From a virus: 39,805 nt of DNA. The translations under genes and the position numbers were made by a program. The stretch is taken from IMG/VR virus record IMGVR_UViG_3300039449_000008, one strand, 5' to 3'. This document shows, piece by piece, positions 16,731 to 18,140 of this stretch. Position 1 is the stretch's first letter; every line of letters starts with the position of its first letter. The notes under the pieces were generated by a model. The model worked only from the letters and a program-made list of their open reading frames with translations, was not told the DNA's origin and did not search any database.

Positions 16731-18140
16731 ATGCTTTTAAAACAACTCACAACGTATCAGATCGAAATGCCTACCACGGCCACTGACCAGCCAATCGCGC
16801 TGGTGCCAACGGAATGGCGCGATCATATCGAGCAAAGTGCTCAATCCATGCGCATACGCCCGCTAACGGCGCTACAGCAAACAGGCTCAGGATTTGAGCC
16901 GCCCTTGCATAAAATAAACAGTGAATACGTTGTGGCCGCCGATTCGTGCGGGTTGTTGTTGCTGTGTTACCGGATTGATACCAAGGCGATCAACGCTGCA
17001 GGCATTAAAGAATCGGTAGAAGCAAAAGCCAAAATCATTGAACACGAAGAGGGCCGTCGCGTTCGTAAATTAGAGCGCGAAGCAATCCACGACGATTTTG
17101 TGACAAAAGCACTTCCGCACATCCAACCCACACCAAAGCGCATTTTAATATTGCTGGACCTACGCCGGTACCGCGTTTTGATTGGCACAAAGTCAGAAGA
17201 CTTGGCGACGACATTACGCCGATTATTAGCAGAACACATCGTGCCAGGTTACGAAGTTGAAACCGCTGACGAAAAAGAAGTACGCCGCCCGCGCTTCATC
17301 GTCGATAGCAACTGCAAAGGCGACCCGCGCGAACATTACCGCCAGTGGATGATTCAAGGCGTTCAAGGGCTGCAACTGCATGACGGCGCATACCTCGAAA
17401 AAGAAGCCTCAAAAAACATCATCGTTACCGGGCAGGCGAATGACGCCCAGGTTATCACCGATGCATTAGATGACGGTTACCAGCCGTTTCAGGTGTCTGT
17501 CAGTGTGATGAATACCGAAGCCGACAGCGTTATCGCTGACGTTGTGCTTGATCGTTTCGGCCAATACACGGCAATACGTATCCCCGGCCATCTTGAAATC
17601 ATCAAAAGCACCCACGAAGACGAAAAAGAAGCCGCGATGGCAGACCTACACGCGAACATGGTGCTCACAGCAGGTACAGCACACGACGTAGAACACGCAG
17701 TAAAAGTGGCATTTGGTGACCAGCTTGAAATCCAAGATATATTAAAAAAAGCACTTGATATGCAGCGAACCGCAACTATTGGAACCTCTCTAATTTCTAA
17801 AGTGATGGCTACCGCGTGTTTAAATATGCCAACTGATTCAACCCAGACCATGACATACAAAGTCGGTCAAGGATCAGAGCCAATCGCCGCCCATCCTGAG
17901 GTGATTACAGTTAATGCGCCCGCGATAGAAAGTGAAGCTGATTACAGTATTTATCCCGCCGCTCGTAGTTTCGTCATGGAAAACCAGAAATGCTCGATAT
18001 CAACACTTCAGCGACATCTACGCATTGGCTACAACTATGCCGCGCGAATAGTTGAGAAGCTCGAATTTGAAGGCGTAGTAAGTAAGCCAAGCAACAACGG
18101 CACTCGTAAAGTTTTAATAAGTGAACTAAGCAGTAATTAA
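16731..18140 (+). CDS. rdgC: RdgC-like recombination-associated protein fused to an FtsK-gamma winged-helix domain.
   Basis: The N-terminus [11 protein letters not shown]...[46 protein letters not shown] parallels E. coli RdgC. The C-terminus [42 protein letters not shown] parallels FtsK gamma. Confidence 0.75.
   Translation: [469 protein letters not shown]

What the first reader, a model, noticed from the sequence alone, without database searches (positions are those of the whole stretch)
16731..18140. RdgC-like protein fused to an FtsK-gamma (KOPS-reading) winged helix
Seen: the first ~300 aa are collinear by eye with E. coli RdgC. Compare [11 protein letters not shown] with MLWFKNLMVYRL, and [46 protein letters not shown] with [46 protein letters not shown]. 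The last ~65 aa closely match the FtsK gamma domain. Compare [42 protein letters not shown] with [42 protein letters not shown].
Established: RdgC is a ring-shaped dsDNA binder that antagonises RecA. FtsK gamma recognises KOPS and contacts XerD.
Inference: I do not know this domain combination as a described architecture. On a replicon that forms head-to-head dimers needing telomere resolution, a sequence-targeted anti-RecA or DNA-handling factor could matter. The gene is also preceded by an iteron array.
Basis: partly seen in the sequence, partly recalled or inferred. Interest (0 to 1): 0.6.

Follow-up and report, generated by a model that had tools for sequence, protein, structure and literature searches.

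The report
Phage RdgC ring with FtsK-gamma tail
A marine telomere phage encodes, as one intact gene, the DNA-encircling recombination modulator RdgC tethered to a copy of the small DNA-reading gamma domain of FtsK. The fusion is real, but it is a common and experimentally unstudied architecture of phages and plasmids, not something special to this replicon.

Summary
ORF 16731-18140 (+, 469 aa) has three parts: a full-length RdgC domain (aa 1-330), a low-confidence linker (about 331-401) and an FtsK-gamma winged helix (402-465). Pfam, PDB sequence matches and a confident AlphaFold model all support this.

The fusion is not a frameshift artefact, and it is not rare:
- At least 80 clusters (50% identity) among the top 117 hits carry both domains.
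- One ESM Atlas cluster of 1,025 members is 99-100% RdgC plus gamma.
- Examples sit on Vibrio phages, plasmids and a RefSeq prophage, annotated only as "RdgC".
- This scan met it before in at least nine other genomes.
- I found no paper on it.

New here: the gamma part behaves as a detachable cassette. A 91%-identical phage has gamma replaced between sharp recombination borders. Another relative lost gamma by a clean 225-bp in-frame deletion.

The link to telomere resolution is not supported. The fusion occurs in non-telomere phages and plasmids, and VP882 and phiHAP-1 lack it.

The "iteron array" is real. It is one of six dispersed 8-bp-period arrays, which persist unchanged when gamma is swapped or deleted, so they are probably not the gamma target.

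Likely function (inferred): a RecA/recombination-modulating DNA clamp with an accessory DNA-targeting or XerD-contacting module.

The parts
16731..18140 (+). rdgC-gamma gene, 469 aa (P0001), stop included
   Evidence: ORF list and translation; Pfam RdgC plus FtsK_gamma
16718..16725 (+). Shine-Dalgarno-like AAGGGAAG, 5 nt before the ATG
   Evidence: read from the sequence
16731..17720 (+). RdgC domain, aa 1-330 (base, centre and finger/tip sub-domains)
   Evidence: Pfam aa 1-328; pLDDT above 90; Foldseek 2OWL/2OWY E 1e-20
16995..17120 (+). finger (tip) helices, aa 89-130, with basic fingertip R109 R110 R112 K113
   Evidence: helices H89-107 and H113-130. Alignment to E. coli RdgC R97 K98 K100 K101. 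The fingertip is needed for loading on circular DNA (PMC2965237)
17721..17933 (+). linker, aa 331-401, variable in length and sequence, low model confidence
   Evidence: pLDDT below 50 for aa 351-401; length varies among homologues
17934..18125 (+). FtsK-gamma winged helix, aa 402-465
   Evidence: Pfam; 2J5P E 4.5e-12; 2VE9 TM 0.92, rmsd 0.8 A; XerD/DNA-contact residues Q427 R428 R431 I432 G433 N435 identical to E. coli (Table 1 of PMC5052618)
17900..18140 (+). exchangeable gamma cassette: the segment replaced in the 91%-identical phage L004
   Evidence: DNA identity is about 95% up to about 17899, 61-74% to the stop, then near-perfect again (apart from one extra repeat unit in L004)
16657..16705 (+). 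upstream 8-bp-period array (CGGTTTTC, about 4.4 copies, then GGAATTACGTAAAACA); overlaps the Q stop codon
18146..18197 (+). downstream array (TTCCGGTT, 4.8 copies, then the same GGAATTACGTAAAACA box), between rdgC-gamma and ssb
18215..18808 (+). ssb, the conserved downstream neighbour of rdgC(-gamma)
   Evidence: Pfam SSB and PHROG 44. The same order is seen in L004, L005, L007 and K242
16044..16664 (+). Q-like antiterminator gene, the conserved upstream neighbour
   Evidence: Pfam Phage_antiter_Q and PHROG 304. Q precedes rdgC-gamma in L007 and L011 as well, and in K242 a few genes upstream

Best explanation
The gene encodes a phage version of RdgC, a dimeric ring that encircles double-stranded DNA without sequence preference. 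In E. coli, RdgC damps RecA strand exchange and RecA-dependent LexA cleavage.

Shown or supported here:
- The protein keeps the basic finger that RdgC needs to load onto DNA without free ends.
- It is predicted to close a ring through the same two interface positions as E. coli RdgC.
- A roughly 70-residue flexible linker carries an FtsK-gamma winged helix at the C-terminus. This domain keeps every residue that E. coli gamma uses to touch DNA and XerD.
- It sits between the Q antiterminator and ssb in the rightward early operon.

Inferred:
- It is made with SSB when the phage replicates.
- The ring coats or clamps phage or host DNA and restrains host RecA (recombination and SOS signalling) on replication intermediates.
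- The gamma domain is an optional, exchangeable add-on. Two gamma domains per ring would add avidity or direct or load the ring at KOPS-like sites, much as gamma helps load the FtsK ring.
- Gamma is not required for the core function, because a natural gamma-less derivative persists in the same gene order.
For: Domain identity.

Fingertip: R109/R110/R112/K113 align with E. coli R97/K98/K100/K101. Their role in loading on circular DNA comes from PMC2965237.

Homodimer prediction of aa 1-340:
- Score 0.42, best of 3 controls 0.18.
- The mark was reached by 20 of 30 proteins solved as pairs of one chain and by 1 of 23 solved as single chains.
- Runs agree in at least 95% of contacts; partner pLDDT at least 81.
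- The two symmetric interfaces, 88-95/130-135 and 227-235/240-248, fall at the gate and horseshoe positions of E. coli RdgC.
- RdgC dimers are solved (2OWL, 2OWY), so this pass may reflect likeness only.

Gamma contact residues: Q427, R428, R431, I432, G433 and N435 are identical to E. coli Q1288, R1289, R1292, I1293, G1294 and N1296 (PMC5052618 Table 1). Q427, R428, G433 and Y434 are at least 90% conserved across 117 relatives.

Operon context: the order is repressor, CII-like, Q, rdgC-gamma, ssb. No terminator-like site was found on the + strand in 14300-19800. The Q ... rdgC-gamma ... ssb order recurs in L004, L007 and K242, and in L011 with ssb a few genes further on.

Modularity of gamma:
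- Cassette replacement with sharp borders in L004.
- A clean 225-bp in-frame deletion between CCGCMAC microhomologies in L005, which keeps the last three codons, the stop and ssb.
- Gamma is also found fused to GapR, H-NS, Mrr and HTH proteins among the hits.
Against: - No biochemical or genetic data exist for any RdgC-gamma protein in the literature I could search.
- The protein scores far below NCBIfam's RdgC cut-offs (75.8 bits against 227).
- It lacks the E. coli gate residues (R118/F120 become H130/Q132) and the horseshoe network (Q212/E218/H222/K227 become N237/V241/A245/Y250). RecA antagonism therefore cannot simply be transferred.
- The phage genome has one GGGNAGGG against 1.7 expected, and no polar over-represented octamer other than the array unit. 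A KOPS-like target on the phage itself is not visible.
- The same gamma surface binds both DNA and XerD, so conservation cannot tell the two roles apart (PMC5052618).
Confidence: 0.5

Rival explanations
1. The gamma domain acts through protein contact. It binds host XerD, activating or sequestering it independently of FtsK, while the RdgC ring supplies the DNA anchor.
For: All six XerD-contacting residues of E. coli gamma are identical here. Seven of the nine residues of the minimal activating peptide RQFRIGYNR are kept, as RHLRIGYNY (PMC5052618).
Against: - The same residues contact DNA, so conservation is not specific to XerD.
- A linear hairpin-ended prophage resolved by its own protelomerase (4725-6308) has no obvious need for Xer.
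- The swapped gamma of the near-identical phage L004 changes two contact positions (R to K, I to L).
- An earlier follow-up in this scan found the fusion and a dif-like site to occur independently (e1-5359800; not retested here).
Confidence: 0.15
2. The protein is an FtsK decoy. Gamma occupies host KOPS sites, with the ring as a roadblock, to disturb or redirect host FtsK translocation and chromosome segregation during phage growth.
For: The gamma DNA-reading residues are conserved. KOPS is not enriched on the phage, so any KOPS-type target would be mainly on the host chromosome. The fusion is confined to mobile elements in the contexts examined.
Against: There is no evidence that this gamma reads KOPS. 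The host is unknown. The gamma-less derivative keeps the rest of the module, so the decoy role would be dispensable.
Confidence: 0.1
3. The protein works like lambda RexA, a structural relative of RdgC. It would be a non-specific DNA binder that biases the lysis-lysogeny switch rather than acting on RecA.
For: The gene lies next to the immunity and switch region (repressor, CII-like, Q). RexA shares the RdgC base and centre domains and acts on the lambda switch (PMC11077077). RexA appears as a weak Foldseek hit (8TWQ, E 4.6e-3).
Against: By sequence it is a full-length RdgC with the finger/tip domain, which did not align in the RexA-RdgC comparison. The Foldseek match to RexA is poor (TM 0.19-0.27). 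The conserved partner is ssb, not a RexB-like membrane protein.
Confidence: 0.1
4. The 8-bp arrays flanking the gene are the specific target of its gamma domain, for autoregulation or local loading of the ring.
For: Arrays lie immediately on both sides of the gene. The repeat unit is 8 bp, the length of a KOPS site.
Against: - The same arrays sit at the same positions when gamma is replaced by a 54%-identical one (L004) or deleted (L005).
- They also precede parA, repA and terS.
- Other RdgC-gamma phages (K242, D79, L011) have none.
- The unit is A/T-rich with CCGG/ACGT cores, unlike G-rich KOPS.
Confidence: 0.05

Closest known systems
Chromosomal RdgC (E. coli b0393, PDB 2OWL; P. aeruginosa, PDB 2OWY; Pfam PF04381)
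   Same: Full-length collinear match and the same fold with base, centre and finger sub-domains. The basic fingertip is conserved. A ring-closing homodimer is predicted with interfaces at the same positions.
   Different: About 19% identity. It is far below the NCBIfam equivalog cut-offs. The gate and horseshoe residues are replaced. It has an insertion of about 15 aa after aa 175, plus a 70-aa linker and a C-terminal gamma domain. It is encoded on a phage in an early operon with ssb.
FtsK gamma domain (E. coli 2J5P; P. aeruginosa 2VE8/2VE9; XerD complex 5DCF; Pfam PF09397)
   Same: 46-50% identity, rmsd 0.7-0.8 A to the crystal structures of the gamma domain (2VE8/2VE9); all six XerD/DNA contact residues identical. 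As in FtsK, it sits at the C-terminus on a flexible linker behind a DNA-encircling ring.
   Different: There is no FtsK alpha/beta motor and no membrane part. It is attached to a passive dimeric ring (two gammas) rather than a hexameric pump. Its target sequence is unknown.
The unnamed RdgC-FtsK_gamma family on mobile elements (PHROG 724 'exonuclease recombination-associated'; e.g. Vibrio phages K242 and D79; WP_168449904.1 of Spongiibacter thalassae; an ESM Atlas cluster of 1,025 members)
   Same: Identical two-domain architecture. In K242 the Q ... rdgC-gamma - ssb order on a protelomerase phage is also the same.
   Different: Only 24-26% identity to K242 and D79. The window's lineage has a longer linker and the flanking 8-bp arrays. 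None of these proteins has been studied experimentally as far as I could find.
Lambda RexA (PDB 8TWQ)
   Same: A phage-encoded structural relative of RdgC that binds DNA non-specifically (PMC11077077).
   Different: Only RexA's globular and dimerization domains align with the RdgC centre and base domains; nothing aligns with the finger/tip. There is no sequence similarity, the structural match is weak, and its partner is RexB.

Membership tests
RdgC (PF04381) | Full-length match to the family profile above the curated cut-off | tested here: met
   69.8 bits against cut-off 25; aa 1-328 against profile positions 1-295 of 298
RdgC (PF04381) | RdgC fold (base, centre and finger/tip domains) | tested here: met
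   Foldseek 2OWL/2OWY E 1e-20, TM 0.76-0.77 by target, on a model with pLDDT above 90
RdgC (PF04381) | Basic fingertip needed for loading on circular DNA (E. coli R97, K98, K100, K101) | tested here: met
   R109, R110, R112, K113; role from PMC2965237
RdgC (PF04381) | Toroidal homodimer closed by two interfaces (gate and horseshoe) | tested here: inconclusive
   Prediction only. Score 0.42, best of 3 controls 0.18. The mark was reached by 20 of 30 solved pairs of one chain and by 1 of 23 single chains. At least 95% contact agreement; pLDDT at least 81. Interfaces lie at 88-95/130-135 and 227-235/240-248. Solved RdgC dimers exist, so the pass may come from memory.
RdgC (PF04381) | E. coli interface residues R118/F120 (gate) and Q212/E218/H222/K227 (horseshoe) | tested here: not met
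   H130/Q132 and N237/V241/A245/Y250. The same positions are in the predicted interface, but with different chemistry.
RdgC (NCBIfam equivalogs NF001460-NF001465) | Score above the curated equivalog or subfamily cut-off | tested here: not met
   Best score 75.8 bits against 227. This is a divergent phage subfamily, not an equivalog of chromosomal RdgC.
RdgC (function) | Non-specific dsDNA binding and inhibition of RecA | not testable with these tools
   Needs purified protein (EMSA, strand-exchange and LexA-cleavage assays).
FtsK gamma domain (PF09397) | Profile match above the cut-off and winged-helix fold | tested here: met
   74.8 bits against 30.6; 2VE9 TM 0.92, rmsd 0.8 A
FtsK gamma domain (PF09397) | Residues that contact XerD and DNA (Q1288, R1289, R1292, I1293, G1294, N1296) | tested here: met
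   Q427, R428, R431, I432, G433, N435 all identical (PMC5052618 Table 1)
FtsK/SpoIIIE translocase | Alpha/beta motor domain (PF01580) N-terminal to gamma | tested here: not met
   No PF01580 hit; the N-terminal 330 aa are RdgC. This is not an FtsK.
FtsK gamma domain (function) | Specific recognition of a polar octamer (KOPS) | not testable with these tools
   Only indirect evidence: GGGNAGGG occurs once against 1.7 expected, and there is no polar octamer in the window. The host genome is unknown.

The most novel reading that the evidence does not exclude
The gamma domain is a swappable loading or targeting device for a passive DNA clamp. As in FtsK, it would direct where a ring is put on DNA. 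RdgC-gamma would then be a sequence-directed RecA-excluding clamp on host or mobile-element DNA. Mobile elements would retune it to their host (KOPS or XerD variant) by exchanging the 240-bp cassette, as seen between this phage and its 91%-identical relative.
Probability: 0.2. Interest if true: 0.7.

Novelty: new member of a known kind. Interest (0 to 1): 0.4.

Why it matters
RdgC is one of the few known protein antagonists of RecA, and FtsK gamma is the textbook example of a domain that reads chromosome polarity. The two are joined in more than a thousand database proteins, in the contexts examined here all on phages, prophages and plasmids, with no experimental study that I could find. This points to a common, overlooked way in which mobile elements handle host recombination or chromosome-processing machinery.

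This window adds two useful natural experiments. One is a near-isogenic pair differing only in the gamma cassette. The other is a relative with a clean gamma deletion. Together they define exactly which constructs to compare at the bench. For this particular replicon, the gene is an ordinary accessory of the early replication and recombination module. It is not a telomere-specific device.

Tried and rejected
- Frameshift or two-gene artefact: rejected. Four fused relatives exist at 49-91% identity. The one 'split' relative (L015, RdgC 267 aa plus gamma 104 aa, on 17 contigs) is an in-frame nonsense allele, E to stop, of a fused gene.
- Arrays as the gamma target: disfavoured.
- KOPS on the phage: GGGNAGGG occurs once against 1.7 expected. 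No polar or over-represented octamer apart from the array unit.
- Recent capture of gamma from a host FtsK: no FtsK gamma is closer than about 53% identity, whereas the gamma of another phage (P0002) is 82% identical.
- Host identification: the window's own assembly is not held. There was no close relative in one genome per species and no megablast hit in the phage collection. The DNA occurs in marine and plastisphere metagenomes.
- Expression: no RNA holder was listed.
- Defence-system libraries: no PADLOC hit.
- Literature: no paper combines RdgC with FtsK gamma. Two structural papers on gamma-KOPS were not held.
- Fold of the 123-aa ParA partner (candidate array binder): the AlphaFold model has pLDDT 46 and is unusable. 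Its ribbon-helix-helix reading rests on the sequence pattern only.
- A profile-based locus search with the mixed alignment failed for lack of conserved blocks.
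Full report
**What is there**

The window carries one uninterrupted ORF at 16731-18140 on the + strand (469 aa, P0001). Its ATG follows a Shine-Dalgarno-like AAGGGAAG.

Evidence for the two domains:
- Pfam places a full-length RdgC domain on aa 1-328 (profile positions 1-295 of 298, E 3e-19). 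It places an FtsK_gamma domain on aa 406-463 (E 4e-21). Both are well above the curated cut-offs.
- PHROGs gives the same split: phrog_724 'exonuclease recombination-associated', plus several gamma-containing families.
- Direct sequence search of the PDB finds E. coli and P. aeruginosa FtsK gamma (E 4.5e-12 to 1.8e-11) and E. coli RdgC (E 8.7e-7).
- An AlphaFold2 model built on 117 relatives has mean pLDDT 86.5. Both domains are mostly above 90, and the segment 351-401 is below 50.
- Foldseek returns the two RdgC crystal structures first (E 1e-20, TM 0.76-0.77 by target). The gamma structures come next, including the KOPS-bound form (TM 0.92, rmsd 0.8 A).

**Setting**

The window is a telomere phage or linear plasmid-prophage. 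It encodes the following:

| Gene | Coordinates |
|---|---|
| Small ParA with a 123-aa partner | 3167-4212, minus strand |
| Protelomerase | 4725-6308 |
| RepA-like protein, 1280 aa | 10501-14343, minus strand |
| Repressor | 14644-15297, minus strand |
| CII-like activator, Q-like antiterminator, rdgC-gamma, ssb | rightward, from 15443 to 18808 |
| C5 methylase | 20240-21136 |
| Lambda-like terminase, portal and tail genes | downstream |

No terminator-like site lies on the + strand between 14300 and 19800. The gene is probably read as part of the rightward early operon; this is an inference. The DNA occurs in marine and plastisphere metagenomes, and the host is unknown.

**The fusion is genuine and common**

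- Relatives at 91% (IMG/VR contig L004), 70, 56 and 49% identity all have both domains in one frame.
- An exhaustive HMMER search of 1.8 billion cluster representatives gave 3,668 hits. Of the best 117, 115 carry FtsK_gamma and 82 carry RdgC by Pfam. That means about 80 distinct 50%-identity clusters have the fusion.
- The ESM Atlas holds one cluster of 1,025 members in which 100% carry RdgC and 99% carry FtsK_gamma.
- Named examples are Vibrio phages K242 (421 aa) and D79 (366 aa), both confirmed by Pfam. Others are a RefSeq protein of Spongiibacter thalassae in a prophage-like region and plasmids of Pseudomonas, Aeromonas, Vogesella, Burkholderia and Vibrio.
- All of these are annotated simply as RdgC or 'exonuclease recombination-associated'.
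- Full-text searches found no paper that mentions the combination.
- This scan has met the same fusion in at least nine other genomes. Two earlier follow-ups reached the same verdict: real, widespread, unstudied.

**No specific tie to telomere resolution**

The fusion follows Q in several telomere-phage lineages: this one, L007, the N15-like L011, and K242 a few genes downstream. It is also present in D79, which has no protelomerase, in a Spongiibacter prophage and on plasmids. The closest named telomere phages, VP882 and phiHAP-1 (protelomerase 42-46% identical), contain no RdgC anywhere. No Escherichia, Klebsiella or Yersinia phage appeared among the listed organisms of the 231 phage records matching the protein. 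The gene therefore looks like an accessory of the early replication and recombination module, usually paired with ssb, rather than part of the telomere machinery.

**What the protein keeps of RdgC**

I aligned it to E. coli RdgC. The four basic fingertip residues that Briggs et al. showed to be essential for loading onto circular DNA (R97, K98, K100, K101) are R109, R110, R112 and K113 here.

The E. coli gate residues (R118, F120) and the horseshoe hydrogen-bond network (Q212, E218, H222, K227) are not conserved; they are H130, Q132 and N237, V241, A245, Y250.

A homodimer prediction of aa 1-340 reached the mark:
- Score 0.42, best of three controls 0.18.
- The mark was reached by 20 of 30 proteins solved as pairs of one chain and by 1 of 23 solved as single chains.
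- Runs agreed in at least 95% of contacts; partner pLDDT was at least 81.
- The two symmetric interfaces, 88-95/130-135 and 227-235/240-248, are the gate and horseshoe positions.

RdgC dimers are solved, so this shows likeness rather than proof. The protein scores far below NCBIfam's RdgC cut-offs. It is a divergent phage subfamily, not an equivalog.

**What it keeps of gamma**

The six E. coli gamma residues that contact XerD are Q1288, R1289, R1292, I1293, G1294 and N1296. According to the same paper they are a subset of the DNA-contacting residues. All are identical here: Q427, R428, R431, I432, G433 and N435. Four positions of that surface are at least 90% conserved across the 117 relatives. 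So the reading surface is under selection. Because one surface serves both DNA and XerD, conservation cannot say which partner matters here.

The phage itself has one GGGNAGGG against 1.7 expected, and no other polar or enriched octamer.

**New here: gamma is a detachable cassette**

1. Replacement. Against the 91%-identical phage L004, DNA identity is about 95% across the RdgC domain and the linker, and 100% in the last 70 bp before about 17899. It is 61-74% from there to the stop, and near-perfect again from the ATTAATAAAA just after it, apart from one extra repeat unit in L004. At protein level the RdgC part is 98.8% identical and gamma 54%. The window's gamma is instead closest (82%) to that of a phage whose RdgC part is only 80% identical. 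This is replacement by recombination, not local drift.

2. Deletion. The relative P0005 (two contigs from two samples) is RdgC-only, at 360 aa. Compared with its fused cousin L007, it lacks exactly 225 bp in frame between imperfect CCGCMAC direct repeats. It keeps the linker, the last three codons, the stop, the downstream array and ssb. The retained, now purposeless linker argues for loss rather than for an ancestral unfused state.

3. Other partners. Among the gamma-containing hits there are fusions to GapR, H-NS, Mrr and HTH proteins. Gamma is thus a promiscuous add-on for DNA-binding proteins of mobile elements.

**The 'iteron array'**

The array is real, but it is not private to this gene.
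- Arrays with an 8-bp period are built from CCGG or ACGT cores and 4-bp A/T spacers. They usually end in a TTACGTAA-type box.
- They lie upstream of parA (4248-4270), repA (14360-14397), rdgC-gamma (16657-16705), ssb (18146-18197) and terS (25090-25135), and inside ORF 19149-19661 (19497-19531).
- A two-unit probe of the repeat (TTCCGGTTTTCCGG, up to 2 mismatches) gives 18 matches against 0.4 expected.
- They occupy the same intergenic positions in L004 (with copy-number changes), in L007 (partly in inverted orientation) and in the gamma-less L005.
- They are absent from K242, D79, L011, VP882 and phiHAP-1.

They are therefore a regulatory or centromere-like system of this phage lineage, independent of gamma.

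My best guess, from memory of the systems, rests on analogy with ParG boxes of TP228, omega heptads of pSM19035 and the dispersed sopC sites of N15. On that analogy they would bind the small partner of ParA (3167-3538). That protein has a basic N-terminal tail and a C-terminal half that looks like a ribbon-helix-helix. A monomer model was too poor to test this.

**Mechanism and odds**

- Shown: the architecture, the conserved finger, the conserved gamma surface, the operon position and the modular behaviour of gamma.
- Inferred (about 50%): a ring-shaped dsDNA binder made with SSB during replication restrains host RecA and recombination on phage intermediates. Two tethered gamma domains give extra or directed DNA binding.
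- Rivals: a XerD-directed role for gamma (15%), an FtsK/KOPS decoy (10%), a RexA-like switch modulator (10%), and arrays as the gamma target (5%).

**Verdict**

This is a new member of an abundant, database-catalogued but experimentally unexplored family. Interest is moderate. The natural gamma-swap and gamma-deletion variants are the most useful outcome.

Noticed in passing
window 4248-4270, 14360-14397, 16657-16705, 18146-18197, 19497-19531, 25090-25135; also L004, L005, L007: Six dispersed arrays with an 8-bp period (CCGG or ACGT cores plus 4-bp A/T spacers, often ending in TTACGTAA). They sit in front of parA, repA, rdgC-gamma, ssb and terS, and inside one ORF. They are conserved at homologous positions in three related telomere phages, with changes in copy number and orientation, and are absent from VP882, phiHAP-1 and K242. 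They look like a lineage-specific operator or centromere regulon.
   Followed up: partly
window 3167-3538 (-): The 123-aa protein directly downstream of the small ParA has no Pfam, PHROG or NCBIfam hit. It has a basic N-terminal tail (MDIGKPKKP) and a C-terminal half resembling a ribbon-helix-helix. It is a candidate ParG/omega-like binder of the arrays. The AlphaFold monomer model was unusable (pLDDT 46).
   Followed up: partly
window 8390-8746 (-): A second small ribbon-helix-helix candidate (Pfam RepB-RCR_reg E 2e-5, RHH_1; NCBIfam replication regulatory RepA, below cut-off). It is an alternative binder for the arrays.
   Followed up: no
L005:292-1374 versus L007:10001-11293: A natural gamma-less rdgC arose by a clean 225-bp in-frame deletion between imperfect 7-bp direct repeats (CCGCMAC). 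It was seen in two contigs from two samples.
   Followed up: yes
L015:2143-3315 (also L016, L017): A distant RdgC-gamma homologue (its 90%-identity cluster mate P0032 is fused, 390 aa) carries an in-frame stop (E268 to stop) on 17 contigs. Gene callers report it as separate RdgC (267 aa) and 'FtsK-like' (104 aa) genes. It lies in a module with a YqaJ exonuclease and an SMC/AAA protein.
   Followed up: partly
alignment A2 (hits): FtsK_gamma also appears fused to GapR, H-NS C-terminal, Mrr-type endonuclease, Cro/C1 HTH and other domains. Many proteins of 100-230 aa are little more than a gamma domain. Gamma is a widely reused module on mobile elements.
   Followed up: no
window 14644-15297 (-) and 15344-15386: The repressor shows only a weak Peptidase_S24 match (E 0.004, below cut-off). 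Facing promoter-like hexamers lie in the 145-bp gap to the CII-like gene.
   Followed up: no
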